64,000 bases of DNA from NCBI GenBank assembly GCA_043803105.1, contig JAZDKJ010000005.1, positions 64,001 through 128,000 of the forward strand, in the 5' to 3' direction. The notes under the pieces were generated by a model that was given only the letters and a program-made list of their open reading frames with translations, searched no databases and was not told where the DNA came from. The first letter of the stretch is position 1. The number at the start of each line of letters is the position of its first letter. The position numbers and the translations under genes were made by a program. Shown here one piece after another: positions 44,038 through 58,661 of this stretch. This DNA comes from Candidatus Woesearchaeota archaeon. Its GTDB lineage: Archaea > Nanobdellota > Nanobdellia > Woesearchaeales > JAZDKJ01.

Positions 44038-44057
44038 ATATCAATGCCTGTTGATAT
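44038..44057. promoter_or_regulatory. Putative ArsR operator
   Basis: ATATCAA-N6-TTGATAT directly upstream of arsR. Confidence 0.6.
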
Positions 44058-44063
44058 GTTTAA

Positions 44064-44351: not shown

Positions 44352-44364
44352 ATAAGGGGGCAAA

Positions 44365-45108: not shown

Positions 45109-45119
45109 GGGATACGACC

Positions 45120-45350: not shown

Positions 45351-45361
45351 GACAAAAATAA

Positions 45362-46429
45362 ATGATAGTTACAGATTTATTCATAGCGGGCATAAAGGCA
45401 GTAATTGAGTATGTTGCAGCTCATGTTCTAACTTGCCTTGTCCCTGCCTTCTTTATTGCTGGAGCTATGTCAGCCCTGCTTCCAAAAGAAAAAATCACCC
45501 AATACCTTGGTCAAAAAGTTTCAAAGCTTAAGGCATACCCCCTGTCAGTTGTCGCAGGTTTGTTACTGGCAGTCTGTTCCTGCACAATCTTACCCTTATT
45601 TGCAGGTATAAAGAAGAAAGGCGCAGGGATAGGTCCTGCTTTAGCATTCTTGTATACGGCTCCTGCTACAAATATAATGGCTATTCTCTTTACTGGAAGC
45701 GTTTTAGGATGGAACTTTGCTCTCGCCAGAATAATCTTATCTGTCACTTTTGCAATAGTTATCGGCATAATAATATCTACAATATTCAAGAAAGAAGATT
45801 TGGAGGAAGAGAAAAAGGCAACTCCTGCTCTTGTTAGCGCTAAGGTGCAGGATAGCAAAGATATGCCATTCTTCCAGAAGCACAGGCTAATATTCTTTTT
45901 CATTACACTTGTATCAATACTCATTGTAGGAACGAGAGTGAATGGGTATTTAAGGTACGTAATCATAGCTGGCTTAATTGTTATTTTAACACTCTTGACC
46001 AAATTGCTTTTCTCAAAAGAAGAAACCAAATCATGGCTTTTTGAAACTTGGACATTCACAAAGAAGATTTTTCCACTTCTTTTAGGAGGCATCTTCTTAG
46101 CAGGTGTCTTAACAGCACTCCTACCTCAAAACTTCCTAGCTACCTTCATGGGCAAAAATACTCTGTTTGCCAATCTTATTGCCGTATTATTTGGCGTATT
46201 TATGTATTTCCCGACCTTGGTAGAAGTTCCAATGGCAAAAATGTTCTTAGGACTTGGCATGGCAAAAGGACCACTATTTGCCTATCTGCTTGCAGACCCA
46301 GTAATCTCACTTGCAAGCATTCTTGTGGTAAGAAAATTCATAGGGACCAAAAGAACCCTAGTTTATGTGGGCTTAATCATAGTGTTCACAACAATCTCAG
46401 GATTGATATACGGAGCGATAGTAGGGTGA
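45362..46429 (+). CDS. DUF318/ArsP family permease
   Basis: HVLTCLVPAFFIAG; AVCSCTILPLFAG; YFPTLVEVP. Confidence 0.88.
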   Translation: MIVTDLFIAGIKAVIEYVAAHVLTCLVPAFFIAGAMSALLPKEKITQYLGQKVSKLKAYPLSVVAGLLLAVCSCTILPLFAGIKKKGAGIGPALAFLYTAPATNIMAILFTGSVLGWNFALARIILSVTFAIVIGIIISTIFKKEDLEEEKKATPALVSAKVQDSKDMPFFQKHRLIFFFITLVSILIVGTRVNGYLRYVIIAGLIVILTLLTKLLFSKEETKSWLFETWTFTKKIFPLLLGGIFLAGVLTALLPQNFLATFMGKNTLFANLIAVLFGVFMYFPTLVEVPMAKMFLGLGMAKGPLFAYLLADPVISLASILVVRKFIGTKRTLVYVGLIIVFTTISGLIYGAIVG

Positions 46430-46440
46430 TAGGTGGAAAA

Positions 46441-46902
46441 ATGAAAGCAACGATAATAATCATGGCTCTAATAGCTCTATTTTTGCAGGGATGTGCTGAC
46501 ACAAACCAGAATTCTTCAATCACAGAAGATTTGTTAAGTAATCAGAGTGCCAAGGCATCAGTAGAAAAGATTGAAGTTTTCCATTTTCACGGAACGAACC
46601 AATGCTATTCATGCAAAACAGTAGGAGCATATGCAAATGAGACAGTATACACATATTATGCTGCCGAGATTCAGTCAGGCAAGATTGTGTTCAATTCCGT
46701 TAATTACGACCTGATAGATAATAAAGTAACAGCCATGAAATATGGCGTTAGTGGTTCATCACTGTGGATAGGAGTATATGACAGCCAAGGATTCCATCCT
46801 GAACAGAACACCAATGTATGGTATAAGATTAATGACAAGCAAGATTTTATGACTTACCTTAAAAGGATCATTGATAGAAGACTGGCAGGAGATTTTAGCT
46901 AG
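46441..46902 (+). CDS. ArsF-like thioredoxin-fold lipoprotein
   Basis: Lipobox LQGC; VFHFHGTNQCYSC; YGVSGSSL. Confidence 0.7.
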   Translation: MKATIIIMALIALFLQGCADTNQNSSITEDLLSNQSAKASVEKIEVFHFHGTNQCYSCKTVGAYANETVYTYYAAEIQSGKIVFNSVNYDLIDNKVTAMKYGVSGSSLWIGVYDSQGFHPEQNTNVWYKINDKQDFMTYLKRIIDRRLAGDFS

Positions 46903-46903
46903 A

Positions 46904-47614
46904 ATGGGATTGATGGCTTTTATGGAGGCTATGGGGAGCAGTAGTATACCACTGATTGCTGCTTTCTTTATCGGGTTGATGACCGCCATAGCTCCTTGCC
47001 CTCTAACCACAAATATCACAGCCATTGCCTACATCTCAAAGAAGATAGGAGATAGCAAACGAACTCTGCTAATTGGATTGATATACACTCTAGGAAGGGC
47101 ACTTACTTATGTAGCTATTGCTTCAGTAATCGTTTGGTTAGGGTTAAATATTCAAGCAATTGCTCTCCCATTGCAGAAATACAGCAATATACTTCTTGGA
47201 CCATTGCTTATAATAATCGGAATAGTCCTGCTTGAACTAGTAAAGCTTGATTTTATCAAAGGATTTTCTGGAATCAATAAACTTGAGGAACAGGTTTCTA
47301 AACAACGGTATTTTGGAAGCTTTCTCCTTGGAGTGATATTTGCTTTAGCATTCTGCCCATTCAGCGCTGTTCTGTTCTTTGGTATGCTTATCCCTCTCGC
47401 TTTAAAAGCAGGAGATGGGATAGTTATCCCATCGGTTTTTGCGTTAGCAACAGGCCTACCTGTGATTATTTTTTCTTTCATCTTGGTGCACAGCGTAACA
47501 AAACTGGCAAAGGTGATGAACAAGGTTAGGATAGTTGACAGATGGGTAAGGAATGTTGCAGGGGTTGTTTTTATCGGAGCAGGAATTTACTACTCAGTGT
47601 CTGTTTTCTTGTGA
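46904..47614 (+). CDS. ArsG-like (CcdA/DsbD family) membrane protein
   Basis: GLMTAIAPCPLTTNITA; ALAFCPFS; ATGLPV. Confidence 0.8.
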   Translation: MGLMAFMEAMGSSSIPLIAAFFIGLMTAIAPCPLTTNITAIAYISKKIGDSKRTLLIGLIYTLGRALTYVAIASVIVWLGLNIQAIALPLQKYSNILLGPLLIIIGIVLLELVKLDFIKGFSGINKLEEQVSKQRYFGSFLLGVIFALAFCPFSAVLFFGMLIPLALKAGDGIVIPSVFALATGLPVIIFSFILVHSVTKLAKVMNKVRIVDRWVRNVAGVVFIGAGIYYSVSVFL

Positions 47615-47616
47615 AA

Positions 47617-47650
47617 AAACTCCGCTCTTCCCGATATATGCCCCGAAAAG
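47617..47650 (+). repeat. Type B site (B1)
   Basis: AAACTCCGCTCTTCCCGA-TATATGCCCCGAAAAG, 2 nt after the arsG-like stop. Confidence 0.85.
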
Positions 47651-47689
47651 TATTTATATTCCTTTTCGTCTATGTTTCTCGACGAGAAG

Positions 47690-47765
47690 AAACTCGACTC
47701 ATCCCGACTTTGCCTGGGAGAAGATTGACAAAGCAGAAGTGCTGAGAAAAGAAGCAGGACTTTAG
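47690..47765 (+). repeat. metK 3'-end copy A1
   Basis: AAACTCGACTC then HPDFAWEKIDKAEVLRKEAGL* (metK ends [21 protein letters not shown]). Confidence 0.95.
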
Positions 47766-47860
47766 TCATTTATTATGACGTGAAGGTTATTTTTTTATTT
47801 TCTTCTTTCGGTTTATAGAAGTGATTTCTCTTTTAATTATGTGTAAACCCTCCTTTAAAA

Positions 47861-48673
47861 TCAAACCATTTCTTCCTTGCACGCAACTAAGTAACTTCTT
47901 ACCAAATCCAAATCAAGGCAGTCATCTGTTCTAACTCCGCTTTCAACATCGATACTTACCCTATTTGGAAAAAACGGTAATAAGGACCTAATTAATGGTC
48001 TGACATTGGATGGTTTTATCCCTCCAGCATAAACCAATCCTAAGTGGTTTAAACCACTATTTGCAATAATACTCTTTCCGAATTTTACTGCCAAACAGCC
48101 CTCATCAAGATTCAGGTCTAAATTAGTCCCGTGGCTAGGGTCAAACATTGCATAATCAATAACACCTCTTCTATCAATAACTTGGCCAACTAACGGTTCT
48201 ACTTGTCCAGTTGATACGTCTTCAACTTTATCTCCTTTCCAAACCGCATATCCTTCTTGAGGAGACTGTTTGTTTGATACTGCCACTTTGAAAATCACTG
48301 TGAAACCCATTTCCTTAATCTTGCTCAGAACATCTAGTGATGCAGGCAATGTGTTAAGCTGGAGTAATGTAACTGAAGGAGTTACTCCTAACCTAACAAT
48401 CGTTTCCAAATCTCCAATTATCGTTTCATTATTTTTTGTATAATAATGCACCGCAGTAATGAATCCATAACCTCTTGTTAGTCTGTCTAGATACCCTAAA
48501 TCTGCAAACTTTGGCTGTCTTGTGTTTTGGCTCCCTTGGTTTATGCTCTTATTAGAGACTTGGTAACCAATAGCCAACGGAAGCGTAAAATCTACCTCAT
48601 GGCAAATTCCAGCTATTCCGCCGAGCTGATCGCTGTTAGAAATAGCACTTACTGAGATATAATTTACTGGCAT
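47861..48673 (-). CDS. TIM-barrel protein, phosphoribosylanthranilate-isomerase-like fold
   Basis: FDPSHGT; YAGGIKPSNV; IDVESGVR. Confidence 0.6.
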   Translation of the reverse strand: MPVNYISVSAISNSDQLGGIAGICHEVDFTLPLAIGYQVSNKSINQGSQNTRQPKFADLGYLDRLTRGYGFITAVHYYTKNNETIIGDLETIVRLGVTPSVTLLQLNTLPASLDVLSKIKEMGFTVIFKVAVSNKQSPQEGYAVWKGDKVEDVSTGQVEPLVGQVIDRRGVIDYAMFDPSHGTNLDLNLDEGCLAVKFGKSIIANSGLNHLGLVYAGGIKPSNVRPLIRSLLPFFPNRVSIDVESGVRTDDCLDLDLVRSYLVACKEEMV

Positions 48674-48823
48674 AAAACAATGAATATTCTATCCCTTTTA
48701 AACGTTTATATTGCAGAGAGATACTTAGCTATTCCTAATGCATATCAAATGGTTTTACCGAATTTATGGAAAGTACTCTTTGTAAAAGGTCAGTATCAGC
48801 AGATTTAAAATCTTATATGTCAC

Positions 48824-48856
48824 AATCTCAGCTCATCCTGACCAATGCCACAAAAG
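48824..48856 (+). repeat. Type B site (B2)
   Basis: AATCTCAGCTCATCCTGA-CCAATGCCACAAAAG. Confidence 0.75.
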
Positions 48857-48898
48857 GTATTTATACTTCTGGTTCGTCTACATTTATAGACGGAAAGA

Positions 48899-48974
48899 GA
48901 AATCCGCCCACTCTCCCGTTACCTGGGAGAAGACTGACAAAGCAGAAGTGCTGAGAAAGGAAGCAGGCTTATAG
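48899..48974 (+). repeat. metK 3'-end copy A2
   Basis: Encodes TWEKTDKAEVLRKEAGL*. Confidence 0.93.
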
Positions 48975-49046
48975 AAAAATATCAGGACGACAATGACATT
49001 TTTTTATTATTTTTTTTTGTTGAAAAGTCGGGATTATAGTCGAGAT

Positions 49047-49098
49047 GCTCAGAAATTATAAATTTCTGGCACGCTAAAAATCATAGATTTTTGAGCGT
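49047..49098. mobile_element. 52-bp double-hairpin (REP/MITE-like) insertion
   Basis: Interrupts CGAGAT|TTCTATCGT, which is intact at 43948-43962; hairpins CAGAAATT/AATTTCTG and AAAAATC/GATTTTT. Confidence 0.65.
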
Positions 49099-49265
49099 TT
49101 CTATCGTACTAAAAAGCAAGAATGTGGCTACATTGGTGCTACAATACATAAGAAAAAAGACCACTCTTTGCATTAATGATCAAAATATTGTTTATTGATC
49201 AATATATTGCTTCAAGCTGGCCATCACTCAGAAAATCTTATAAATATGCTGAATATAAAACCTAT

Positions 49266-50096
49266 ATGAAGATTATACTACTCGGAACAGCAGGGGTGGT
49301 ACCTATTCCTAGATTGGGATGCTCTTGCGAGATATGCCTTGAAGCCCGAAAAAAGGGCATTCCTTATAGTAGGACAGGTACATCGCTATTTGTAGAAGAC
49401 ATCGATTTGCTTTTTGACACCCCTGAGGAGATTAGGGCCTAACTTGAAAGAGAAAAGATTAATTCCTTAAAGCATGTAATCCTAACACATTGGCATCCTG
49501 ATCACACCTTAGGGTTGAGGATTCTAGAACAATACAATTTTGATTTTGTCAACAAGGTTTCTTTACATGAACCTGTCATGGTATATATTTCACGAGACCA
49601 ATTTGACATGTTCAAAAAACTCTCTTGCGGAGGTTTTCTTGATTTCTATGAGAAGAAAGGTATTATCAAGCTTGTTTTCATTGAACCGAACAAGAAAATT
49701 ACAATTGGCAAAATTTCGATAGAACCAATATTGATAGAATTCACGAAGGGATTTTACTTTGTAATATCTGAAGGCAAAAAAAAGGTAGTCTATGCGCCTT
49801 GCGAATATCACCATTTAGAAGTAGATGTCACAACACGAAATGTTGATGTCTTCATAGCGCATAATCTTTTTTGGGAGGATAGGTCAATCAGTCCGCGAAA
49901 GGTGCCTCCCTCGGATGAAGATAGTTTTGAGCAAATGCTCAATCATGCAAAAGAGATGAATGCCAGGAGAATTGTAATTACACACATAGAAGAAACTTTC
50001 AAGCTAAATCACGATGAACTCAATGCAGTATTAAGAAAGAAATTTCCTGGGTACAATGTTGAAGCAGGTTATGATAGCATGAAAATAATTTTATGA
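49266..50096 (+). pseudogene. MBL-fold hydrolase (PhnP-like) with in-frame stop
   Basis: LGTAG…PRLGCSCEIC; in-frame TAA at 49440-49442; THWHPDH follows in the same frame. Confidence 0.85.
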
Positions 50097-50124
50097 AGTT
50101 GCTTGATTAAGAAGACAAAAATTA

Positions 50125-50475
50125 TTACGGGCTGTATCTTGTCCTGTCCCTTGGGAAAAGGCTCGCCTGCCTGACATTCTCTAAACCAAGAAATTTGGCA
50201 GTCAACCGTTCCCCTCCTATACCAAAACCACCATGAGGGGGCATACCATATTTGAAAGCTGCAAGATAGCCTTCAAACTCATCTAGATTCATGTTATTTT
50301 TCTTCATGGCAGCTATTAGCATGTCGTAATCGTGAATCCTCTGCCCGCTTGTGGTTACTTCGAGACCGTTCATAATAAGGTCAAACGAATTTGTGAGACC
50401 ATCGTTCTTACCTGAAGGCATCGTATAAAAAGGTCTGGCTTCCGATGGATATTCGGTAAGAAAAACAAAGGGCAA
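50125..50475 (-). pseudogene. aspS: Aspartyl-tRNA synthetase C-terminal fragment
   Basis: RPFYTMP; SGQRIHD; YGMPPHGGFGIGGERL; LFPRD; N-terminal part missing. Confidence 0.85.
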
Positions 50476-50577
50476 ATTCGAGTCTTGTTATATGAAACTG
50501 AGTTATCTCACAGGAAGATGGCTGCTGAAATTAGCATATACTTGCTTGAGAATTTTGGATTAATGATTTCGAATTGA
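50473..50577 (+). pseudogene. 3' fragment paralogous to ORF 52398-53114
   Basis: QIRVLLYETELSHRKMAAEISIYLLENFGLMISN* vs QIRVLLEETKLAHRKMAAEINTYLLESFGLNISS*. Confidence 0.85.
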
Positions 50578-50607
50578 AAGTATCTTTTGCAAGGCAATTT
50601 AATAACG

Positions 50608-50620
50608 AAATGCCCCAAAA
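50608..50620 (+). repeat. Partial type B site (right arm only)
   Basis: AAATGCCCCAAAA. Confidence 0.5.
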
Positions 50621-50629
50621 ACTTTTTAT

Positions 50630-50965
50630 CTAGAATATCTTGACAAGCTCTTCTTTAACTTTTTTGAATGTGTTCTCCTTCAGAGACCCAATCTTCATGA
50701 TTATTAGTGATTTTTCTACACAAAATATCTTGTCAACCCTGATTCTACTCTCTGTAACAAGTTTTCCAGCAGACATATCCTGTTGGCTTATCAGAACTGA
50801 ATATGGCTCATCTTTTATCACTGAGGTCAATGGCACCATTATGCAATCTGCAGACTTCTTGTTCAACAGGTCATTTGAGACGACAAGCGCAGGCCTTACC
50901 TTATTTTGCTTCAAATCGGAAAAAGGATAAGGCAACAATACTATGTCTCTTTGCGAGACAATCAT
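50630..50965 (-). CDS. MazF/PemK family toxin
   Basis: DIVLLPYPFSD; KVRPALVVSND; VPLTS. Confidence 0.92.
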   Translation of the reverse strand: MIVSQRDIVLLPYPFSDLKQNKVRPALVVSNDLLNKKSADCIMVPLTSVIKDEPYSVLISQQDMSAGKLVTESRIRVDKIFCVEKSLIIMKIGSLKENTFKKVKEELVKIF

Positions 50966-51219
50966 TTCAGGTACGACCCCCAGATGTCATCAGATTTATT
51001 GTCCCAAACTTTCTTTAAGGATTTCTCGCTGAATTTCAAAATATCCTTGAATTCATCCTTTAGCTTTTTTTCAGTGTCCTTGGATTTCTCCAACACTATT
51101 TTCCCATCTACCTGAAGCATAACAAGGTCATCCCCCTTCTCAATCCCAAGACTTTCTCTTACGGATTGCGGGATGGCTATTTGCCCCTTGTCAGACACTT
51201 TTACAGTTGCAATGCTCAT
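50962..51219 (-). CDS. AbrB/MazE family antitoxin
   Basis: KGQIAIPQSVRESLGIEKGD. Confidence 0.9.
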   Translation of the reverse strand: MSIATVKVSDKGQIAIPQSVRESLGIEKGDDLVMLQVDGKIVLEKSKDTEKKLKDEFKDILKFSEKSLKKVWDNKSDDIWGSYLK

Positions 51220-51237
51220 TTTGTCACCACTTTATGC

Positions 51238-51255
51238 AGTAAGAATTTTCTTACT
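51238..51255. promoter_or_regulatory. Palindromic operator upstream of mazEF-like pair
   Basis: AGTAAGAA-TT-TTCTTACT. Confidence 0.6.
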
Positions 51256-51280
51256 TATAAAGATTGCGTTTATTTCAACA

Positions 51281-51313
51281 AAACTCCGCCCTTCCAGATA
51301 AATGCCCCAAAAG
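51281..51313 (+). repeat. Type B site (B3)
   Basis: AAACTCCGCCCTTCCAGA-TAAATGCCCCAAAAG. Confidence 0.85.
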
Positions 51314-51364
51314 CAGATGGCCTACAAGATATATAGCATAATATAATCAATTCTTGTTTTAGGT

Positions 51365-51673
51365 TTATATCATCAATAGAAGTGGAATGATTGAGTTATT
51401 CCCTTTTTCTGTGATAATCTCACTTATCTTATCGTATCGCTCGAGGTTAAGGTAATATTTCCAGCCATGCTGTTTTTTCTTTTTACAACATATGTTCTGC
51501 TTCAACAGGGCATCAAGAACAATCTCAACTTTATCAACGTCTTCTTTTGGGATTCCAGATTTCAGGACATGAATATATGCAGAACCTTTTCCAAAACAGT
51601 TTGAGTCAAATAACTTCTTAACAATTGTCCTGCTAATTTTTATATATTCGCTCCTCTTTATCTTTGCCATCAA
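51365..51673 (-). CDS. Small hypothetical protein, possibly winged-helix
   Basis: 102 aa basic ORF; …LLKQNI…KYYLN. Confidence 0.5.
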   Translation of the reverse strand: MMAKIKRSEYIKISRTIVKKLFDSNCFGKGSAYIHVLKSGIPKEDVDKVEIVLDALLKQNICCKKKKQHGWKYYLNLERYDKISEIITEKGNNSIIPLLLMI

Positions 51674-51774
51674 GTGAAATAACGCTTATCTTGTATATAA
51701 TTAGATGGTCTAAATTTAGCCCCTTGTAGGCCTAAAAGAAAGCTTTAAATACATGTTTATCTTTCAAGATTCCA

Positions 51775-52147
51775 ATGGAGAAATCAGTTTTTTTTGGCGG
51801 AGGAGGGAAATACCCCGAAGAACAGGATATGGAGTTTCTTAATAGTACATTCCGAATATGATTACTCCATGAGAGAAATCGCAAGATACTCACAAGTAGG
51901 TTACACAACATTAAAAGGAATTTGGATAGATTTTAAGAAAAAGAAGATAGTTACGCAAACACGACTTGTTGGAAGAGCAAAGATGTACAAGTTAAATCTG
52001 AAGAATCCTGTTGTAAATAAATTTGTGGAGTACTATTGGGCTGTGGTGGAAGCGGTCATAAGAAAGGAAAACAACATCAGCGAGGATGATACAGTAACCC
52101 ATCCTTCTTCGGCTGATGCGATTCCCCTTTCTACAAAAAGCATTTAA
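51775..52147 (+). pseudogene. Winged-helix protein with apparent +1 frameshift in a T8 run
   Basis: ATG at 51775 (MEKSVF) is out of frame with the AEEGNTPKNRIW…GRAKMYKLN body; T8 at 51788-51795. Confidence 0.55.
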
Positions 52148-52169
52148 TGGCTGATTTTCGAACGAAGTA

Positions 52170-52245
52170 AAACTCTGCTCATCCGGACTTTACATGGGAA
52201 TGGGTAGATAAAGCGGAAGTCCTGCGGAGGGAAGCAGGCTTGTAA
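52170..52245 (+). repeat. metK 3'-end copy A3
   Basis: AAACTCTGCTC then HPDFTWEWVDKAEVLRREAGL*. Confidence 0.95.
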
Positions 52246-52397
52246 GCCAAAGTCAAGACGTGAACGTCATTTTTTATTTTTGTTTTTTATTGAAAAATCG
52301 AAGCTTGTGGACGATATTTCTTTCGTTGTATAAGCAAGATTGTAGCTACATTAGTGCGACGCAAAGTGTTTTAAGGATTAAATGATTCCTCTCAACG

Positions 52398-53114
52398 ATG
52401 GTATACTTACCTAGTCTTGTTGAGTATTTTCAAATTGAAATAGAAGCCCTCAACGGAGTCAGTTGCTCTACAAGAGCTTCTTCATACATTGTGCCTGAAG
52501 ATATCTTTGCCCAAAAAGCAAAGTTTGAACCCAGATTTCAAAAGGCCCAAGAAAAAAGCTTACCATATACATGGATTGTCTGGGAAGAACCACTAACAGT
52601 GGGAGTTTACTTTCCAAGCACACTTTTGCAAAGTCTGGACAATTGCAGATTTGTCAATACAGCTGATGCTTTAGATGTCTTGGAAGAAACGAGTCATTTC
52701 TTATATATTCATAATTACGCTGCGAGATTCAAGGAAATGCCTCATTATATCAATCTGGAAATAGTAGCTTCCTTAGAGAAATATTTTGTTACCAAGCAGA
52801 AAGCAAAGACTTTGAAAGAATTTGATATGGGTCCTGTAAGAACAGTGTGCTTCAATGGTGCTTATCGAGATACTTTGGACATGGACCATATTATTGGTCA
52901 CTCTTTGGCAGAGCCATTAGCCAAAAAATTGGATGAAGTTGAAGATGAAGCAGGATTATCCCAAAGAAATGAATTATACAGAAAATTCTATAATAAGGGA
53001 AACAAAGAGCAAATCCGAGTGTTGTTGGAAGAGACTAAGTTGGCACACAGGAAGATGGCTGCCGAAATCAATACTTATCTGCTTGAGAGTTTTGGATTAA
53101 ATATCTCAAGCTGA
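52398..53114 (+). CDS. Hypothetical protein
   Basis: 238 aa ORF; LEETSHFLY motif; paralogous fragment at 50473. Confidence 0.7.
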   Translation: MVYLPSLVEYFQIEIEALNGVSCSTRASSYIVPEDIFAQKAKFEPRFQKAQEKSLPYTWIVWEEPLTVGVYFPSTLLQSLDNCRFVNTADALDVLEETSHFLYIHNYAARFKEMPHYINLEIVASLEKYFVTKQKAKTLKEFDMGPVRTVCFNGAYRDTLDMDHIIGHSLAEPLAKKLDEVEDEAGLSQRNELYRKFYNKGNKEQIRVLLEETKLAHRKMAAEINTYLLESFGLNISS

Positions 53115-53140
53115 TGTATCTGCTTTAAGGTTAAGTACAA

Positions 53141-53173
53141 AAACTCCGCTTTTCCCGATATATGCCCCGAAAG
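53141..53173 (+). repeat. Type B site (B4)
   Basis: AAACTCCGCTTTTCCCGA-TATATGCCCCGAAAG. Confidence 0.88.
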
Positions 53174-53216
53174 CTACTGTATCTCTCCTGTAATTATCAT
53201 TTATTAAGCTCCTTAT

Positions 53217-53234
53217 TTACTTACATGTAAGTAA
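53217..53234. promoter_or_regulatory. Perfect 18-bp palindrome, putative operator
   Basis: TTACTTACATGTAAGTAA upstream of the AbiEi-like gene. Confidence 0.65.
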
Positions 53235-53266
53235 CATTTATATACTAGTTATGATACTTACATAGT

Positions 53267-53836
53267 ATGCGAGGCGATAAACGAGAAAGGATATTGAGAG
53301 TATTGCTCAACAGCAAAGAGCCTTTAAGCAAGAATGAGCTCTCAAAACGAGCAGATTGCAGTAGGCAGTGGGTTATCCTTTATCTGAAAGAGTTAGAGAA
53401 GAAGAAGCTTATCAAGGGCACCGCTCCAAGTAATAGAAAAAAACTTTTAGAATATTGGATTATCTTAGCAAAGAAACCTAAAAAATTCAGGAGTTATATG
53501 GTTAAGGAACCACTAGATCTTTTAAAAAAGTCAAAATTAGATTATACGCTGACAACCTATCAGGCAGAGAACATTGTTCAGCATTATCTTTTCCCCTCAA
53601 GAATAGATGTTTACATAAAAGAAGAAGATTTGAATAGTTGGCACAGCCTAATGACCAAGAATGGATTATATGGAAAAGGAAATGTTAAGGTGATAGTAGC
53701 AGATCCGCATGTTATGTATGGAAAACGAATTATAGATGGACTTTCAATAGTCTCACTGCCACAACTTATATTGGATTTAACTCAAGAAGGTGGTCCATGC
53801 CAGGAAGCTGCCGAGATGCTCATGAAGAGGTTATAA
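53267..53836 (+). CDS. wHTH plus AbiEi-like (type IV TA) antitoxin
   Basis: N-terminal HTH; C-terminal VSLPQLILDL…G…EAAEML. Confidence 0.7.
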   Translation: MRGDKRERILRVLLNSKEPLSKNELSKRADCSRQWVILYLKELEKKKLIKGTAPSNRKKLLEYWIILAKKPKKFRSYMVKEPLDLLKKSKLDYTLTTYQAENIVQHYLFPSRIDVYIKEEDLNSWHSLMTKNGLYGKGNVKVIVADPHVMYGKRIIDGLSIVSLPQLILDLTQEGGPCQEAAEMLMKRL

Positions 53837-54600
53837 TGTATAAGGAATTTGAGACTAGAATATCGTACAAGTATTTGAAAGAGGTAATCAACACTCTAGA
53901 AGAGCCTATTTGCATACTTGGCGGTTGGGCAGTATTCTTTCATGTAAATAACAGATTTGAGAAAGCACAAGGCAGGCCTTATTTAGGAAGCAGAGATATT
54001 GACTTGGGCTTCCAAATGAAGACAAATTTGAAAGAAACAACTTTGGCTCAAACAATTAGGATTCTCAAAGAAGAACTCAAGTTTAAGCCGTTAAGTTTCA
54101 GGCTTATGAAAGAAATCCATACTGAAACAGAGGAAGAGCTAAAAGAAGGTGAGACTGTCTCTACTCACTTTATCTTTCCAATGTATGTTGATTTGATAGT
54201 TGACTCTATTCCTGACAACTTCAAGAATATTTTTGGATTTAACCCAATAGATGAGCCTTTATTGAAACAAGTTTTTGAGAACAAGGAATCCACAATGGTC
54301 ACTGAATTCAATAGAAAATTATTGCTTCCCACCCCTAAGCTTCTTTTAGGCATGAAAGTCAATTCCCTGCCAAATAGAGATAAAGACCATAAGCGAATAA
54401 AAGACATTTGTGACATGTTCGCTTTGTTGTGGTATACAGATATAAAGGCAGAAAAAGTTAATCTCGGAGATTACGCTTCAAAAAAAGCTATTATAAAAGC
54501 TGTTCAAACAATAAATAACCAGGATTACGAAAAAGTGGCTGCTCAAATTGGGCATAGTGCTGAAGAAATTAAGAGAGTCATCAGCCTATTATTACAATAA
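53836..54600 (+). CDS. AbiEii-like nucleotidyltransferase toxin
   Basis: ILGGWAV; SRDIDL; K…R…KD..D. Confidence 0.7.
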   Translation: MYKEFETRISYKYLKEVINTLEEPICILGGWAVFFHVNNRFEKAQGRPYLGSRDIDLGFQMKTNLKETTLAQTIRILKEELKFKPLSFRLMKEIHTETEEELKEGETVSTHFIFPMYVDLIVDSIPDNFKNIFGFNPIDEPLLKQVFENKESTMVTEFNRKLLLPTPKLLLGMKVNSLPNRDKDHKRIKDICDMFALLWYTDIKAEKVNLGDYASKKAIIKAVQTINNQDYEKVAAQIGHSAEEIKRVISLLLQ

Positions 54601-54704
54601 TGAAACCTGCTCATTTAAACAAACGTCATCCAATTTTTACAAGATTGTCGGTATATTTCTTCGTAAAAAGCCAGGATAAGCAGATTTATGAATTCAAGTA
54701 GCAC

Positions 54705-54737
54705 AAACTCTGCCCACTCCGACTAATGCCCCGAAAG
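54705..54737 (+). repeat. Type B site (B5)
   Basis: AAACTCTGCCCACTCCGA-CTAATGCCCCGAAAG; upstream ~70 nt resembles that of B2. Confidence 0.82.
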
Positions 54738-54821
54738 CCAATCAGTTGTATTTGTCCACAGCCAGGATTACAAACATTTTAATATCCGAATACAGTGGAT
54801 ATCTGGTGAGGTGAGAAATTG

Positions 54822-55034
54822 ATGTCCAAAAAAGATATGAAAAATCAGTGTTTTAACCATGGCTCCTTTCACCATGGCTGCGGCGGAGCGCTTTATGGCC
54901 TTGGGTTTATTGGTTCGGCTGTGTATTACATTTCCACAGCAACAGGCTTTTGGATGGGAGTGTTGGGATTTTTGAAAGCGATTGTTTGGCCAGCATTCTT
55001 GGTATATTCGCTAATGAAATCCTTGGGGATGTAA
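54822..55034 (+). CDS. Small membrane protein
   Basis: GGALYGLGFIGSAVYYI…KAIVWPAFLVY; upstream GGTGAGGTGA RBS. Confidence 0.75.
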   Translation: MSKKDMKNQCFNHGSFHHGCGGALYGLGFIGSAVYYISTATGFWMGVLGFLKAIVWPAFLVYSLMKSLGM

Positions 55035-55048: not shown

Positions 55049-55125
55049 AAACTCGACTCATCCTGACTTTACCTGGGAGCATGTAGATAAGGCAGAGATA
55101 CTAAAAAAGGAAGCAGGATTGTTAG
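55049..55125 (+). repeat. metK 3'-end copy A4
   Basis: AAACTCGACTC then HPDFTWEHVDKAEILKKEAGL; stop shifted out of frame by one base. Confidence 0.95.
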
Positions 55126-55335
55126 TTGCGTTATCGTCACAATTCCCATTTTTTTATATTTAATTTTTTTTGTGTAAAGACATCATTTTGGGATGAGATT
55201 TCTCTTGTAAATTAAATTAAGTACAAAATTCGGACGCATCGAAGATTTTACAACAACTGGGAAATTTTCACTAAACATTTGGACGATGAAGATGATGATT
55301 ACATCCGAACAAACGAAATATTTATATAGAACTAT

Positions 55336-55390: not shown

Positions 55391-55984
55391 ATGAAAACGC
55401 CAACTGAAAAGGAGAATGAAGCATTGTTGTTGATATTCAAGGATTTTAGTAGCGACTACAATGCTAACTCAATCTCGAAAAAACTGAATATAACGCCAAG
55501 AGGTTCTTTAAAGATATTGAATAGTCTTTACTCAGAAAAGACCCTAGTAAGAAAAAAGCTTGGCAAAGCTATCTTTTATAAAATCGATTTTGAAGATAAT
55601 TACACTAAAAAATTGATTGAAGCCCTATTGATAAAAGAATCCAAGGAAAAAGCAGAAAGGTGGCTGCATGAATTTGGAGGATTAGCTGAAACTGCGCAGA
55701 TTGTATTAATCTATGGTTCGACTCTAAGAAACTATGACAAAGCCAAGGATGTAGATTTACTGGTGATTATTGAGAAAGAGAGGTATAAGGAAGTTAAAAA
55801 ATTTATTGATGAGAAAAACAATATTTCCTACAAGCCAATACATCCGCTAATAATGACCTTATCAGATTTGGAAAAGAACTTGAAAAACAAAAATCCTGCA
55901 ATGGTTAATGCCATAAGAGAAAGTTATGTTCTTCAAGGTCATGATAAAATGATAGGGGTAGTAAAAAATGTCACAAGCTTCTAA
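55391..55984 (+). CDS. wHTH-MNT nucleotidyltransferase fusion (antitoxin-like)
   Basis: N-terminal wHTH; IYGS…KDVDLLV. Confidence 0.82.
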   Translation: MKTPTEKENEALLLIFKDFSSDYNANSISKKLNITPRGSLKILNSLYSEKTLVRKKLGKAIFYKIDFEDNYTKKLIEALLIKESKEKAERWLHEFGGLAETAQIVLIYGSTLRNYDKAKDVDLLVIIEKERYKEVKKFIDEKNNISYKPIHPLIMTLSDLEKNLKNKNPAMVNAIRESYVLQGHDKMIGVVKNVTSF

Positions 55985-56480
55985 TAAAGTTAAGTGGTGT
56001 CTTAACAAGGCAAAGAAGGAATTAGCAGAAATTGGGATGCATCGTGGATTAGTAGAACAAGAACAAGACTATAAAGTGGCAGCACTTCATATAGCAAAAG
56101 CACGACATAACCTCAATGCAGCATTATTTTTTGAGAAAAACAATTATTCTGACTGGTCTGCAAGTGCTTTCTTCTATTGCATATATCATTGCTTTTTAGC
56201 AATCCTGCACAGATTCGGATACGAATCAAGAAACCAGGAATGCACTATTGCAGTAATTGAAATGCTAAAAGAACAAGGCAAAATTGCTATTGATGATAGA
56301 TTCATCAGCACTTTAAAGATTTCGAAGGCAAAAGACGATGAGCATAGCTTAGTTAAGATAAGGGAAGATTTTCAGTATGGCACAAACATAGAGTTTCAGA
56401 AGAAAGAACAATTTGAAGAGCTTACCATAATGTGCAAGGAAGCAATAGAAGCAACAAATAAAATTATCTTCAGCAAATAA
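55968..56480 (+). CDS. HEPN domain protein
   Basis: KARHNL; FYCIYH; GYESRNQEC; REDFQY. Confidence 0.82.
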   Translation: MSQASNKVKWCLNKAKKELAEIGMHRGLVEQEQDYKVAALHIAKARHNLNAALFFEKNNYSDWSASAFFYCIYHCFLAILHRFGYESRNQECTIAVIEMLKEQGKIAIDDRFISTLKISKAKDDEHSLVKIREDFQYGTNIEFQKKEQFEELTIMCKEAIEATNKIIFSK

Positions 56481-56525
56481 AACTCAGCCCATTCCGACCT
56501 TACATGGCAAAAAACGGACAAGGTT
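56480..56525 (+). repeat. metK 3'-end copy A5 (truncated, degenerate)
   Basis: AAACTCAGCCC then HSDLTWQKTDK; abuts the HEPN stop codon. Confidence 0.8.
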
Positions 56526-56942
56526 AGATTAGCAACGGACGGGATTTTAAGAGGTTCAGAAATCCCTTGATCTCCAAATTCTCTTGTTCTTGACTTTATA
56601 AACTTTCAGGAACTGAATTCAGAACCAACCTTAACGAAGTATATAAGCACCATCTGCTCTTCTTAAAATGAACCTAGGTGGTGCAAAATTATACAAACCG
56701 AAAAGACAGCATTTGATCTGCAGATGAAGGAGCAACAAGTAGCGCATTGGGAAACCTACCATCAATTGCCTGGATGCAGGGAAATGGGAGAACATCTTGA
56801 CAAGCAACCTGAGGAGGCAAACTGGAATGGTCAAAGACTGACCCAAAAGTTAGAACCTACTGAGAGTTTTGTAGATGCAAGTTTTGTGGCTGAACGGGAA
56901 CTCGATCTCGTCCAGTCAATCCTTGTACTGCAACGTCTTTAA

Positions 56943-58661
56943 TTAAGGTCCTCTAAACTGTCTCAAGAGCCAGGCGAACAAGTTGTTCAACCATGAAGGC
57001 TTAGTAACAGTATGACCTAACGCTTGACCAGTAATCTGGTTGTTGTCAGTTGAAGCAGTTCCATTAGTACCCTGACCAGTCCCCCCAGTTTCTTGTCTAA
57101 TGTTGGCCAATTCTGCTGTCTGTAGCTCTGTTGGCACAGTCCTATCTTGGCCTACCGCATTTGTTTCAGTATGTTTACATGGTTGCTTTTGTTTTGATAT
57201 GACCTTGCTATTTGGGTAGGTGCATGTCTTTATTTGTATTCCTTCTGAATTGCATGCTGACCATTCTGAACACTGCCCATTAGCTCCCAAACTTCCGCTA
57301 CCTCCTGAACTTCCTCCTCCTCCTGAGGATCTCTTTTTCGCAGCCGGATTTGTCGGAATTGTTGGTGCCTGGAATTCGTTTACTGTTATTGTTATAGCTT
57401 CGCTTGCCGATTTTATACTGTCGTTAACTGTGAAGGTCACGTTAGTTACTCCCACATCAGTCACGTTTGGCATCCAGTTGAAGGTAGCAGTCCCGTCATA
57501 ATTGTTGGTAAAGTTTGCTGTTGCAGGTTTGCCGGCAATTACAAATGTTAAATTAAACCCGTCTGGACTTGTGGCTGTTATTGTGAAGTTAAGCAATGTA
57601 TCCTGCGTAACGCTCATTGAACCGATATGATTGAGTATCGGAGCAGCTGTCTGTACAATAACTACGCTTGTTGCGCTTACAGTTCCGCTCGTCGCACTAA
57701 TTGTAGCGCCGCCAGAAGCAACAGCAGTAACAAGACCGCTTGTAGCATTAACTGTAGCAACAGACAAATTGCTTGAAGCATAGGAGATGGTCGCACCTAT
57801 CAACGAACCATACTGATCAAGACTTGTAGCATTCAACTGCAAAGTAGATCCGACAGTAAGATTTGCTGATGTTGGTGCTAATATGATTGTTGTCAAAACA
57901 GGGACAATAGATGGTAATGAGACAGTATTGGCACTTAATGTAACAGCTGTTTGCGCCAATGCCCTTCCGTTTAATGTTGCGCCAGTATTCAACACAATCG
58001 CTGTTTGATCCAGAATGTTTCCATTGAAAACAGATGTTGTTCCAAGGGTTGTTTTGTCAGCGACTTGCCAGAAGATGTTGTATGCCTGGCAGCTACCGCT
58101 GAGAGTAACAATTGCACCACTGCCCACGGTGAGGGTTCCTGGTATCTGAAAGATGAAGACACCTGCGGAGTTGCCAAGGCAATCGAGAGTGACACCAGTG
58201 TTTATTACAACCCCAGTCCCCCATTTATAGAGCCCAGGAGTGAGAGTCATCCCACTAATATCTCCCGCACCTAGTTCAGTAACATCAGGTAATGAGCGTC
58301 CTGCCGCATCAGTGTACGCTGTTTCCATGTCGCTTATAGCTGTAGCCATAACCAATGGGGTTGGATCTGCATAGTCGGCTGCATAAACGCTTCCGTTAAC
58401 TAAAGATGATGTGGAAAATTGGTTCGATGCATCAAGTATCAGTCCAAATCCTGTGATCGCAGTGCTGTCGATAGGACTCACCCCAATATTTCCAACAATA
58501 GAGGTTGTGCCAGTGGTTGAGATTCCTGATTTTGCCAATATTACAAAATTCCCGGCTGTTCCGAGATCTACAGCTGGTTGTGCTGCATATACTGAACATA
58601 CTACAGATACAAAAACCATAAGATATACAAAGACGTTTGATAATATTTTTGTTTGTTTCAT
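56943..58661 (-). CDS. Secreted DUF3494 (ice-binding-type) protein with Ig-like domains
   Basis: VDLGTAGNFVILAKSGIS; AYTDAAGR; LTPGLYKW; NIFWQVA; NGRALAQTAVTL; Big_2-like YASSNLSVATV. Confidence 0.92.
   Translation of the reverse strand: MKQTKILSNVFVYLMVFVSVVCSVYAAQPAVDLGTAGNFVILAKSGISTTGTTSIVGNIGVSPIDSTAITGFGLILDASNQFSTSSLVNGSVYAADYADPTPLVMATAISDMETAYTDAAGRSLPDVTELGAGDISGMTLTPGLYKWGTGVVINTGVTLDCLGNSAGVFIFQIPGTLTVGSGAIVTLSGSCQAYNIFWQVADKTTLGTTSVFNGNILDQTAIVLNTGATLNGRALAQTAVTLSANTVSLPSIVPVLTTIILAPTSANLTVGSTLQLNATSLDQYGSLIGATISYASSNLSVATVNATSGLVTAVASGGATISATSGTVSATSVVIVQTAAPILNHIGSMSVTQDTLLNFTITATSPDGFNLTFVIAGKPATANFTNNYDGTATFNWMPNVTDVGVTNVTFTVNDSIKSASEAITITVNEFQAPTIPTNPAAKKRSSGGGGSSGGSGSLGANGQCSEWSACNSEGIQIKTCTYPNSKVISKQKQPCKHTETNAVGQDRTVPTELQTAELANIRQETGGTGQGTNGTASTDNNQITGQALGHTVTKPSWLNNLFAWLLRQFRGP

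What the first reader, a model, noticed from the sequence alone, without database searches (positions are those of the whole stretch)
47617..54737. A second site class shares the left arm and core but has a different right arm, cutting the array into 1-2 gene cassettes
Seen: sites at 47617, 48824, 51281, 53141 and 54705 (partial at 50608) read AAACTCNGCNYWYYCNGA followed by YNWATGCCMCRAAAG rather than the metK tail. The metK-tail sites share the 18-nt left part, and native metK shares only ATCCTGA. Sites sit right after cargo stop codons: B1 2 nt after the arsG-like stop, B4 26 nt after 53114, A4 14 nt after 55034, and A5 overlapping the HEPN stop. B sites bracket the MazEF pair and the AbiE-like pair exactly. 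Inference: one recombination core (around CCNGA) is used with two alternative partners. That gives about 12 same-orientation sites in 12.5 kb, a layout like attC-punctuated integron arrays but without canonical attC (GTTRRRY) boxes.
Basis: partly seen in the sequence, partly recalled or inferred. Interest (0 to 1): 0.82.

Follow-up and report, generated by a model that had tools for sequence, protein, structure and literature searches.

The report
Gene-cassette stack behind archaeal metK
Behind the essential metK gene of a small Woesearchaeales archaeon lies a 16-kb stack of imported gene packets, each bounded by one short DNA site that comes in two versions; it looks like a recombinase-built gene-capture platform whose enzyme is still unknown.

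Summary
The 18-nt left arm occurs 10 times on the + strand between 47617 and 59948 (11 window hits against 1.57 expected). In the 1.56-Mb genome, 9 of 10 hits at one mismatch or fewer lie in this array. Five sites carry the second right arm, which occurs nowhere else.

The array is a tandem stack of at least six integrase-less mini-elements inserted into the metK 3' end. Each brings a replacement metK tail plus a conserved ~130-nt arm, which I call P' (tail-distal arm). The tails decay with distance from metK.

B sites are tail-less versions of the same site. In six other published Woesearchaeales genomes one B site belongs to the standard right end of such elements: B, a TATA-like box, a hairpin box, then the A site. 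In this genome B sites also stand alone and cut elements into 1-2-gene cassettes. The same MNT-HEPN cassette sits in different site contexts in four genomes.

Recombination at the shared core is the best reading but is inferred. No recombinase is linked to any array, no excision product was seen, and the site is not an attC. This is a new variant of tandem accretion with integron-like features.

The parts
42729..43883 (+). metK (384 aa). The native attachment core ATCCTGAC lies at 43819-43826. The present C-terminal tail (43821-43883) is presumably supplied by the newest element.
   Evidence: The tail is shared with the A sites (family D1).
43884..44063 (+). P'0: terminator-like hairpin, T-run and conserved arm (a GATTTCT-TCGT box and two GCTACA repeats).
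   Evidence: Alignment A1. nhmmer finds 5 copies, all in this array, and 0 in 80 metagenome metK loci.
44064..47614 (+). Unit 1 cargo: ArsR, SAM methyltransferase, thioredoxin_3, ArsP permease, ArsF-family protein, DsbD_2 membrane protein.
47617..47649 (+). B1 site (left arm, core and tail-less right arm).
47650..47689 (+). TATA-like box plus inverted-repeat box (TTCGTC...GACGA) between B1 and A1. This is an 'empty' 73-nt interval.
   Evidence: The same module is found in G088, G105, G217 and G119.
47690..47765 (+). A1 site plus metK tail copy 1 (reading frame and stop intact).
47861..48673 (-). Unit 2 cargo: 270-aa protein of unknown function (weak PRAI-like match).
48777..48856 (+). B2 module: 47 nt holding an inverted copy of the arm, then the B2 site (48824-48856).
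   Evidence: family D6; fold; inverted copy score 11; 0 of 300 shuffles reach it.
48904..48974 (+). A2 site (degenerate left arm) plus tail copy 2 (intact stop).
   Evidence: Homologous to G105 and G217.
48975..49175 (+). P'2, carrying a ~52-nt palindromic insert at about 49046-49097.
49176..50096 (+). Metallo-beta-lactamase-fold gene with one in-frame TAA at 49440 (pseudogene or read-through).
50125..50475 (-). C-terminal fragment (116 aa) of a class II aminoacyl-tRNA synthetase.
50457..50621 (+). 77% copy of the 3' end of ORF 52398-53114, followed by a decayed B site (right arm only, 50610-50621).
   Evidence: family D4.
50630..51219 (-). MazF (50630-50965) and MazE (50962-51219) cassette.
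51281..51313 (+). B3 site (stands alone).
51365..52147 (.). Cassette with a 102-aa (-) and a 117-aa (+) protein. The 117-aa protein weakly resembles the N-terminus of the MNT protein family.
52170..52245 (+). A3: a B-type left arm fused directly to tail copy 3 (intact).
52246..52397 (+). P'3.
52398..53114 (+). 238-aa protein of unknown function.
   Evidence: no family.
53141..53173 (+). B4 site (stands alone).
53267..54600 (+). 189-aa winged-helix protein plus 267-aa AbiEii-like nucleotidyltransferase.
54658..54737 (+). B5 module: 47 nt with a weak inverted arm copy (54688, - strand), then B5 (54705-54737).
   Evidence: (family D6).
54819..55034 (+). 71-aa small protein cassette.
55049..55125 (+). 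A4 site plus tail copy 4 (stop lost).
55126..55313 (+). P'4, ending in a probable decayed B site at about 55296-55313.
55391..56480 (+). MNT nucleotidyltransferase (55391-55984) and HEPN (55968-56480) cassette.
   Evidence: The same cassette is found in G212 and G008 (74-82% aa) and in G137 (43-47% aa).
56480..56553 (+). A5 site overlapping the HEPN stop, plus a degenerate tail copy 5.
56943..59912 (.). Oldest unit cargo: ice-binding protein with Ig-like domains (56943-58661, -) and a 330-aa protein (58920-59912, +).
59948..60026 (+). A6 site (2 mismatches), preceded by a shortened hairpin box, plus a degenerate tail copy 6. This is probably the lineage's original metK tail.

Best explanation
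Terms: the A site is the left arm plus a metK tail copy. The B site is the same left arm plus the tail-less right arm. P' is the conserved arm after each tail.

The region from 43.8 to 60.0 kb is an accretion island. It was built by repeated site-specific insertion of small, integrase-less elements into the 3' end of metK.

Each incoming element carries an attachment region made of these parts in order:
- a left half-site (AAACTCNRCYCWTCC);
- a core (NGAY);
- a replacement metK tail of about 20 codons;
- a terminator-like hairpin and T-run;
- the ~130-nt P' arm.

Insertion at the native core keeps metK whole and pushes older elements outward. This leaves junctions of left arm, core and old tail, which are the A sites.

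The B site is a tail-less version of the same site. It has the same half-site and core, then about 15 nt that weakly resemble the start of the tail and end in a purine-rich box. In complete right ends a TATA-like box follows.

One B site is part of the family's standard right end: B, TATA-like box, inverted-repeat box, then the A half-site. Because B and A share the half-site and core, the same recombinase can exchange strands between any two of them. That would insert or delete units that begin with a B right arm and end with a left arm. The results would be stand-alone B sites that cut elements into 1-2-gene cassettes, 73-nt 'empty' units, and A sites in which a B-type arm is fused directly to a tail.

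The recombinase acts in trans. It is most likely a tyrosine recombinase, either from an unseen helper element or a resident enzyme.

Shown: the anatomy, the confinement to this locus, conservation across genomes, and the same cassette in different site contexts.

Inferred: the strand exchange itself, the crossover position, and the enzyme.
For: (1) Confinement and polarity. 9 of 10 genome-wide left-arm hits are in the array and all are +. No site module has another copy in the genome.

(2) Ordered insertion. Six tail copies each encode a metK-like C-terminus with different nucleotides. Copies 1-3 are intact, copy 4 has lost its stop, and copies 5-6 are degenerate.

(3) An element family.
- The P' arm and the right end are conserved at about 70-78% in genomes of other families of the order.
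- P' is absent from 80 unrelated metK loci covering 937 kb.

(4) B sites as site-like boundaries.
- Homology among copies stops at the end of the 33-nt site in B3, B4, B5, the decayed site and the G212 site.
- G212 has tail, P', B, MNT-HEPN, A.
- G008 has the same without P'.
- G000 has tail4, P'4, a decayed B, MNT-HEPN, A5.
- G137 has MNT-HEPN, a B variant, the box, then the tail.

(5) Fusion products. B-type arms are joined directly to tails in A3, A5, G212-A and G008-A. Seven other right ends keep the 73-90-nt interval.

(6) Arm conservation. The arm at the HEPN stop is 15 of 19 identical between G000 and G137, while the coding DNA is 60% identical.

(7) Cargo. The cargo is accessory and typical of mobile DNA: arsenic-related genes, MazEF, MNT-HEPN, an AbiE-like pair and an ice-binding protein.
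Against: - No recombinase gene lies on any of the 11 array contigs examined.
- No virus or plasmid carrying the site was found in 3 viral scans.
- No circle, deletion variant or sequencing run was available.
- The closest relative's contig breaks inside metK, so no strain comparison was possible.
- The site lacks the dyad symmetry usual for tyrosine-recombinase cores. Inverted arm copies are significant in only 2 of 21 sites tested.
- Arm-to-tail fusions could arise by replication slippage between 18-nt direct repeats.
- Several stand-alone B sites occur only in G000. One further example rests on the unpublished genome G315.
- The similarity of the B right arm to the tail start is weak: 6.81 against 6.0 matches of 16. 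The sequences compared are related, so the shuffle test overstates it.
Confidence: 0.5

Rival explanations
1. The island is a stack of site-specifically integrated mini-elements, but the B site is only an accessory element of the element's right arm. It would be an arm-type binding site for the recombinase or a partner, doubling as the upstream half of an outward promoter. Stand-alone B sites would be relics left when later deletions removed the box, A site, tail and P' between neighbouring elements.
For: - In 6 published genomes the B site sits at a fixed place in the right end, followed by a TATA-like box and a conserved inverted-repeat box.
- The island clearly decays: a pseudogene, gene fragments, a B site lacking its arm, and P' lost in G008.
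- Only G000 has several stand-alone B sites.
Against: - Five stand-alone B sites (four in G000 and one in G212) end within about 3 nt of the same position, which random deletions would not give.
- The G212 order (tail, P', B, cassette, A) needs two separate precise deletions under this reading.
Confidence: 0.25
2. The same cassette model, but the enzyme is the host's own chromosome-resolution recombinase XerA. The cassettes would then be Xer-exploiting elements that use a non-dif site in metK.
For: - XerA is the only tyrosine recombinase found in G105 and G177, and G212 has only one such match, left unclassified. These genomes are 91%, 98% and 92% complete.
- G000 has a bona fide XerA, scoring 249.6 bits against a cut-off of 220.
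- No array contig encodes an integrase.
Against: - Archaeal dif sites are 11-bp inverted repeats around a 6-bp spacer (PMC2958812, passages read). The A and B sites show no such symmetry.
- The best site-like sequence elsewhere in the genome lies inside a coding gene.
- Genome bins often lack their plasmids and viruses, so a missing integrase is weak evidence.
Confidence: 0.12
3. No site-specific recombinase is involved. Cassettes are exchanged by homologous recombination, using the conserved metK end, tail copies and P' arms as homology. The short sites are conserved as transcription signals.
For: - The B right arm plus the following box looks like an archaeal BRE/TATA promoter; that consensus is recalled, not tested.
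- A hairpin and T-run follow each tail.
- The tails and P' arms offer 60-180 nt of homology.
Against: - This does not explain the left arm, which is not derived from metK: 0 of 41 native metK ends read that way. The arm is kept at cassette ends whatever the gene orientation.
- The tails are only 64-77% identical, which is poor substrate for homologous exchange.
Confidence: 0.08
4. It is a true integron array lacking its integrase (a CALIN, a cluster of attC sites lacking the integron integrase).
For: Same-orientation short sites between small cassettes rich in toxin-antitoxin genes, as described for archaeal integrons (PMC9668308, passages read).
Against: - No attC-like single-strand fold.
- No R'/R'' boxes (direct reading of the sites).
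- No IntI: the XerA match to the integron-integrase model is below its cut-off, 216.7 against 265.
- Cassettes lie on both strands and have their own promoter regions.
Confidence: 0.02

Closest known systems
Tandem accretion of integrative elements and CIMEs (cis-mobilizable elements), e.g. the ICESt1/ICESt3 family at the 3' end of fda in Streptococcus thermophilus (review PMC5704250, passages read; the fda example is recalled)
   Same: - Site-specific insertion into the 3' end of a protein-coding housekeeping gene.
- The element supplies a replacement gene end.
- Successive insertions at one site give arrays with internal att sites.
- Members without an integrase depend on a helper.
   Different: - Here the units are far smaller (0.07-3.9 kb) and none of the 6 has an integrase.
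- The host is a DPANN archaeon and the target is metK.
- A second, tail-less site class subdivides the units.
Tycheposon islands of Prochlorococcus (bioRxiv 10.1101/2020.12.28.424599, passages read)
   Same: New elements push older ones outward from a fixed attachment site. This leaves partial copies of the target and degenerate remnants in a streamlined genome, with adaptive or defence cargo.
   Different: - Tycheposons carry their own integrase (910 of 937 have a tyrosine recombinase) and target tRNA genes.
- No second site class is described in the passages I read.
Integron cassette arrays, including the archaeal ones (PMC9668308, passages read)
   Same: - Short same-orientation sites separate 1-2-gene cassettes.
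- Toxin-antitoxin cargo is common.
- Arrays without an integrase are common.
- The cassette boundary falls at the 3' edge of a conserved block.
   Different: - No attC palindrome or fold, and no IntI or attI.
- The platform is anchored in a gene end that is regenerated at each insertion.
- Cassettes lie on both strands.
Xer-exploiting elements (IMEX, integrative mobile elements exploiting Xer) and pdif modules of Acinetobacter plasmids (abstracts in the listing; details recalled)
   Same: Integrase-less units flanked by short recombination sites, possibly moved by a host-encoded recombinase. Tandem arrays occur at one site.
   Different: - Those sites are dif-like 28-bp dyads, and pdif sites alternate in orientation.
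- Here the sites are asymmetric and all face one way.
Tandem integrated elements in archaea (review PMC8371274, passages read)
   Same: Tandem integration at one locus and loss of integrase genes after integration are both reported.
   Different: The review contains no occurrence of metK, DPANN or Woesearchaeota. Those elements are viruses or plasmids of several kb, mostly at tRNA genes (the tRNA point is recalled).

Membership tests
Integron / CALIN | attC sites: imperfect palindromes that fold as single strands, with R''/L''/L'/R' boxes | tested here: not met
   Eight folds of B sites with flanks, on both strands, give z-scores from -1.93 to +1.43. Stand-alone B sites form no hairpin. No GTTRRRY box is seen in the sites.
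Integron / CALIN | IntI tyrosine recombinase with the IntI-specific extra domain, and an adjacent attI | tested here: not met
   The genome has 5 tyrosine-recombinase matches and none is on the window's contig. The best is XerA; its match to the integron-integrase model scores 216.7 against a cut-off of 265. The genome is 96.5% complete, so absence is not proven.
Integron / CALIN | IntegronFinder call | not testable with these tools
   The program is not available here.
Tandem accretion of site-specific integrative elements (CIME-like) | Direct repeats of the target gene's 3' end flanking each unit, all in one orientation | tested here: met
   There are 6 extra tail copies besides the native one, all +. 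The same is seen in G088, G212, G008, G217, G105, G119, G137 and G177.
Tandem accretion of site-specific integrative elements (CIME-like) | Conserved element-derived arms on both sides of the core | tested here: met
   The P' arm has 5 copies in G000 plus copies in G088, G217, G212, G148, G004 and G137. The right end is conserved in 6 published genomes.
Tandem accretion of site-specific integrative elements (CIME-like) | A related autonomous element encoding the cognate integrase | tested here: not met
   None lies on the 11 array contigs. The two site-pattern scans of IMG/VR returned 0 matches, and the 6 matches to the hairpin pattern are chance. Only a limited part of public data was searched.
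Tandem accretion of site-specific integrative elements (CIME-like) | Demonstrated excision or integration | not testable with these tools
   No sequencing run was listed.
Xer-dependent elements (IMEX / dif modules) | dif-like site: two ~11-bp inverted arms around a 6-bp spacer | tested here: not met
   No dyad was found within the sites. Inverted arm copies lie 17-18 nt upstream and are significant at only 2 of 21 sites. The criterion comes from PMC2958812 (passages read).
Xer-dependent elements (IMEX / dif modules) | Host Xer recombinase present | tested here: met
   XerA scores 249.6 bits against a cut-off of 220. This feature is necessary but not discriminating.
IS110-type RNA-guided or serine-recombinase elements | DEDD transposase or serine recombinase in the genome | tested here: not met
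   PF01548 and PF00239 each give 0 matches in the genome.

The most novel reading that the evidence does not exclude
Woesearchaeales carry an integron-like gene-capture platform that is mechanistically distinct from integrons. It would be anchored in the essential metK gene, whose end is regenerated at every capture. It would use one asymmetric double-strand half-site and core with two interchangeable right arms: a tail-bearing arm for entry at metK and a tail-less arm for entry at secondary sites. It would be driven in trans, possibly by the host's own XerA. This would give genome-reduced DPANN archaea a way to collect and shuffle 1-2-gene defence and stress cassettes without any cassette-borne recombinase.
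Probability: 0.3. Interest if true: 0.85.

Novelty: new variant of a known kind. Interest (0 to 1): 0.62.

Why it matters
DPANN archaea have tiny genomes, and little is known about how they gain accessory genes. This locus shows an ordered, datable record of at least six captures behind one housekeeping gene. The units are the size of integron cassettes, yet their site architecture is not that of integrons.

If the tail-less sites are active, this would be a second, independent solution to modular gene capture. It would also offer a compact site set (a 33-nt site plus a regenerating gene end) of interest for archaeal genetics.

If they are not active, the locus is still a clear archaeal example of accretion of integrase-less elements at a protein-coding gene. 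My searches found no description of that for metK or for Woesearchaeales.

Tried and rejected
- **Generic genome-wide motif:** rejected.
- **Known RNA family or tRNA target:** no Rfam match at E up to 1 over 42000-61000, and no tRNA in the window.
- **Left arm as diverged metK coding sequence:** rejected. 0 of 41 native metK C-termini from 36 metagenome loci and 5 genome loci read like the arm.
- **P' arm as the normal metK 3' region:** rejected. 0 hits in 80 metagenome metK loci.
- **80 nearest metK loci in metagenomes (58-79% identity, 937 kb):** 6 loci had left-arm hits at up to 2 mismatches. All lacked a tail or B arm, so I read them as chance. 0 of 80 had a second tail by my strict pattern.
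- **Left-arm scan of the order (401 genomes, up to 1 mismatch):** outside G000 there were 46 hits against about 38 for the reversed control. I fetched 11 single hits, and only G008 was real.
- **Viral contigs:** 0 matches to the A pattern and 0 to the arm-plus-GCC pattern. The 6 matches to the hairpin pattern have no arm or tail next to them.
- **Closest relative G078:** its contig ends inside metK and nothing matches the far flank, so no strain comparison was possible.
- **Sequencing runs:** none was listed.
- **Second target site elsewhere:** the full B pattern hit only metK-linked arrays.
- **Best site-like sequence outside the array (C6:235965):** it lies inside a 578-aa reading frame.
- **The left-arm-like hit at C8:18666:** it lies in a coding region near an unrelated 300-nt repeat.
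- **Cargo proteins as hidden recombinases:** no family match suggests one.
- **Not used:** Structure prediction, complex prediction, the search for homologous proteins and the search of protein representatives.
- **Supplements:** supplementary files of papers were closed. Data S3 of PMC9668308, the list of archaeal genomes with attC clusters, might show whether this genome was called there.

Full report
**Terms.** The A site is the left arm plus a metK tail copy. The B site is the same left arm plus a tail-less right arm. P' is the conserved arm that follows each tail. G-numbers are coded genomes of the same order as the window's genome (G000).

**What is there**

The window is contig C5:64001-128000 of a 1.56-Mb, 96.5%-complete genome. 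Record titles of related contigs and the metK neighbours place it in the Woesearchaeota/Woesearchaeales.

metK (42729-43883, +) follows ribosomal protein genes L10 and L1. From its last 63 nt to about 60030, every unit is bounded by one motif on the + strand.

Ten of these lie between 47617 and 59948. In the whole genome, 9 of 10 matches at up to 1 mismatch are in this stretch. A weight matrix built from 17 sites scores at least 16 bits ten times in the array and once in the remaining 1.548 Mb. That test is circular for the training sites.

The second right arm is weak on its own: 6 hits against 1.57 expected, and 1 of 100 shuffles reaches 6. Its exact form occurs only here.

**The tail-bearing (A) sites are junctions of stacked integrative elements**

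Sites at 47690, about 48904, 52170, 55049, 56480 and 59948 are each followed by about 60 nt encoding a metK-like C-terminus. They are 64-77% identical in nucleotides to one another and to the native end.

Copies 1-3 keep the frame and the stop. Copy 4 has lost its stop. Copies 5 and 6 are degenerate. That gradient is what repeated insertion at the metK-proximal core predicts: each newcomer supplies the working tail and pushes older units outward.

The left arm is not metK sequence. In 41 native metK ends from 36 metagenome and 5 genome loci, the residues before PDF/PEF are always of the GHFGR-x-x type. None reads like the arm. Homology between native metK and the A sites begins at ATCCNGAC.

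After each of five tails (the native one and copies 1-4) comes a hairpin, a T-run and a conserved ~130-nt arm, P' (alignment A1). A profile of P' finds its five copies in this array. It finds nothing else in the genome and nothing in 80 metK loci from metagenomes. P' therefore belongs to the element and not to metK.

**The same element family occurs elsewhere, usually as a single copy**

- With the full B pattern (up to 3 mismatches), 6 of 401 genomes of the order match. These include G000, and the reversed control gives 0 hits.
- Follow-up by left-arm scan and BLAST adds G008, G119, G137 and G177. G148 and G004 have P' next to metK.
- At least 10 of 401 sampled genomes therefore carry sites. 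They fall in nine coded families of the order. G315 is unpublished.
- This is a lower bound, because I followed up only 8 of the many one search hits.
- No other genome had more than two left-arm hits in the scan; G000 has at least 10.
- None of the 80 metagenome metK loci has a real site or a second tail.

**What the B site is**

In G088 a single 1.1-kb element shows the plain architecture, in this order:
1. the metK core;
2. a new tail;
3. the hairpin and T-run;
4. P';
5. one cargo gene;
6. a ~47-nt block;
7. the B site;
8. a TATA-like box;
9. an inverted-repeat box (TTCGTC...GACGA);
10. a second left arm and core;
11. the old tail.

The same right end (B, TATA-like box, hairpin box, A) recurs in G105, G217 and G119. 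It recurs as a variant in G137, and twice in G000 (B1/A1 and B2/A2). It is 70-78% identical across families. So one B site is a standard part of the family's right arm, 73-90 nt upstream of the crossover core.

The ~47-nt block holds an inverted copy of the arm. This copy is significant at B2 and in G105 (score 11; 0 of 300 shuffles reach it). It is marginal in G217 and B5, and absent at the other sites: 2 of 21 are clearly significant.

The B right arm weakly resembles the first ~15 nt of the tail, with a mean of 6.81 matches of 16 against 6.0 ± 0.22 for shuffles. The sequences compared are related, so this is only suggestive. The variants in G137 and in unpublished G315 look intermediate between the two arm types.

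I read B as a tail-less paralogue of the A site.

**Evidence that B sites behave as boundaries and not only as arm furniture**

- *Sharp homology limits.* B3, B4 and B5 stand alone. On both sides of the 33-nt site the sequence is cassette-specific, and the conserved block ends within about 3 nt of the same position in each. The same holds for the decayed copy at 50610-50621 and the G212 site.
- *A duplicated gene end with its site.* A 121-nt copy of the end of ORF 52398-53114, followed about 30 nt later by a B right arm, occurs twice. One copy is followed by MazEF and the other by the AbiE-like pair (family D4).
- *A shared module with different neighbours.* B2 and B5 share the 47-nt block and the site, but nothing beyond them on either side (family D6).
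- *One cassette in four contexts.* The MNT-HEPN cassette occurs in four genomes, always ending with a left arm at the HEPN stop:
  - G212: tail, P', B, cassette, A;
  - G008 (same genus): the same, without P' and with a degenerate arm;
  - G000: tail 4, P'4, a probable decayed B, cassette, A5;
  - G137 (43-47% protein identity): cassette, a B variant, the box, then the tail.

  The G212 order is simple if a unit beginning with a B right arm entered at a resident site. Under the 'relic' reading it needs two precise deletions.
- *Direct arm-to-tail fusions.* In A3, A5, G212-A and G008-A a B-type arm is fused directly to a tail. This is the product expected from exchange between a B core and the A core 73 nt downstream. 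Slippage between the direct repeats would give the same product, so this point is not decisive.
- *Arm conservation.* Between G000 and G137 the arm is 15 of 19 identical while the cassette's coding DNA is 60% identical. The numbers are small.

**Cargo**

| Unit | Content |
|---|---|
| 1 | ArsR, SAM methyltransferase, thioredoxin_3, ArsP permease, ArsF-family protein, DsbD_2 protein |
| 2 | 270-aa protein of unknown function |
| 3 | Decaying: metallo-beta-lactamase-fold gene with one in-frame TAA, a class II aminoacyl-tRNA synthetase C-terminal fragment, a gene-end fragment with a decayed B |
| 3, sub-cassettes | MazEF; then two small proteins |
| 4 | 238-aa unknown protein; then B4; then a winged-helix protein plus an AbiEii-like nucleotidyltransferase; then B5; then a 71-aa protein |
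| 5 | MNT-HEPN |
| 6 | Ice-binding protein with Ig-like domains, and a 330-aa protein |

The AbiEii-like name rests on atlas scores of 0.96-0.98 and TM 0.74 to a cluster in which 72% of members carry AbiEii. There is no Pfam or PADLOC hit for it.

Genes lie on both strands, so the sites are not gene-linked terminators.

**The enzyme is missing**

- The genome has five tyrosine-recombinase matches and none is on this contig. They are:
  - one bona fide XerA, scoring 249.6 against a cut-off of 220;
  - three proteins of about 415-430 aa with a C-terminal CxxC...CxxC motif;
  - one weak match.
- There is no serine recombinase and no IS110-type transposase. One Y1 transposase lies elsewhere.
- In ten other genomes with the system, no integrase lies on the array contig. 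G105 and G177 have only a Xer-like enzyme, and G212 has a single match that I did not classify.
- Three scans of viral contigs found no carrier.

The recombinase therefore acts in trans. It comes either from a helper that is unbinned or gone, or from a resident enzyme. XerA is the only universal candidate. However, the sites lack the 11-6-11 dyad of archaeal dif sites (PMC2958812, passages).

**Comparison with known systems**

- *Integrons.* The layout works like an integron array, but it fails the membership tests. There is no attC fold, no R boxes and no IntI, and cassettes lie on both strands. Archaeal integrons as described keep the bacterial attC and IntI features (PMC9668308, passages).
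- *Tandem accretion.* The closest known process is tandem accretion of integrative elements and integrase-less derivatives at the 3' end of a gene (PMC5704250, passages). The outward-pushing islands of tycheposons are similar (bioRxiv 10.1101/2020.12.28.424599, passages). Tandem integration and integrase loss are also noted for archaea (PMC8371274, passages).
- *What is new.* The target is metK. The host is a group of DPANN archaea. All units are very small and lack an integrase. A second, tail-less site class subdivides them.
- *Literature searches.* Searches for metK with integrase or attB, for Woesearchaeota with integron, and for Woesearchaeales with integrase found nothing relevant. Subscription journals are outside the library.

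**Verdict**

| Claim | My estimate |
|---|---|
| The observation | Confirmed |
| A stack of site-specifically inserted mini-elements at metK | About 0.85 (not a scored section of this report) |
| B sites are alternative crossover sites, making a true cassette array | About 0.5 |
| B sites are only arm or promoter furniture, with later deletions | About 0.25 |

Direct evidence of recombination is lacking. No sequencing run was listed, and the nearest relative's contig breaks inside metK. Such a break is what a repeated, variable locus tends to cause in assemblies.

Noticed in passing
window 49046-49097 (inside P'2); also L124 (G119) about 8830-8880: A ~52-nt strongly palindromic insert splits the conserved P' box. 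As RNA it folds at -20.5 kcal/mol. Short (45-65 nt, 78-96% identical) matches to it occur in dozens of the 401 genomes of the order, often on both strands at one place; I did not count them exactly. It looks like a widespread small palindromic repeat, a miniature mobile element or an unknown RNA motif. It has no Rfam match.
   Followed up: partly
G000 contig C8:18830-19140 and C8:25710-26000: Two ~300-nt direct repeats (76.5% identical) lie 6.9 kb apart. Each begins with a sequence like the left half of the palindromic insert. They may be the ends of another inserted element.
   Followed up: partly
window 50125-50475 (-): A stray 116-aa C-terminal fragment of a class II aminoacyl-tRNA synthetase sits inside the island. 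It is 28-38% identical to the two full-length paralogues elsewhere in the genome. It may be a relic of an element that targeted a synthetase gene end.
   Followed up: partly
window 49176-50096 (+): The metallo-beta-lactamase-fold gene is interrupted by a single in-frame TAA at 49440-49442. It is either a pseudogene or a case of stop read-through.
   Followed up: no
window 56943-58661 (-) and 60.9-62.4 kb (-): An ice-binding-domain surface protein is carried as island cargo. A 35%-identical paralogue lies just outside the island (C5:125676-126434, window 61676-62434).
   Followed up: no
G000 C7:31119-32372, C10:28832-30070, C6:519964-521256: Three paralogous ~415-430-aa tyrosine recombinases carry a C-terminal CxxC...CxxC zinc-ribbon-like tail. 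They match XerA models only weakly. Their sites and elements are unknown.
   Followed up: partly
L017 (G105) 2682-2800: A B-type site with a 2-nt shorter spacer is followed by an inverted left arm and then a second B site. This may be a small invertible or palindromic arrangement.
   Followed up: no
record titles: Two public records carrying this Woesearchaeales-type metK array are titled 'uncultured Methanosarcinales archaeon'. This is probably a taxonomic mislabel in the deposited bins.
   Followed up: no
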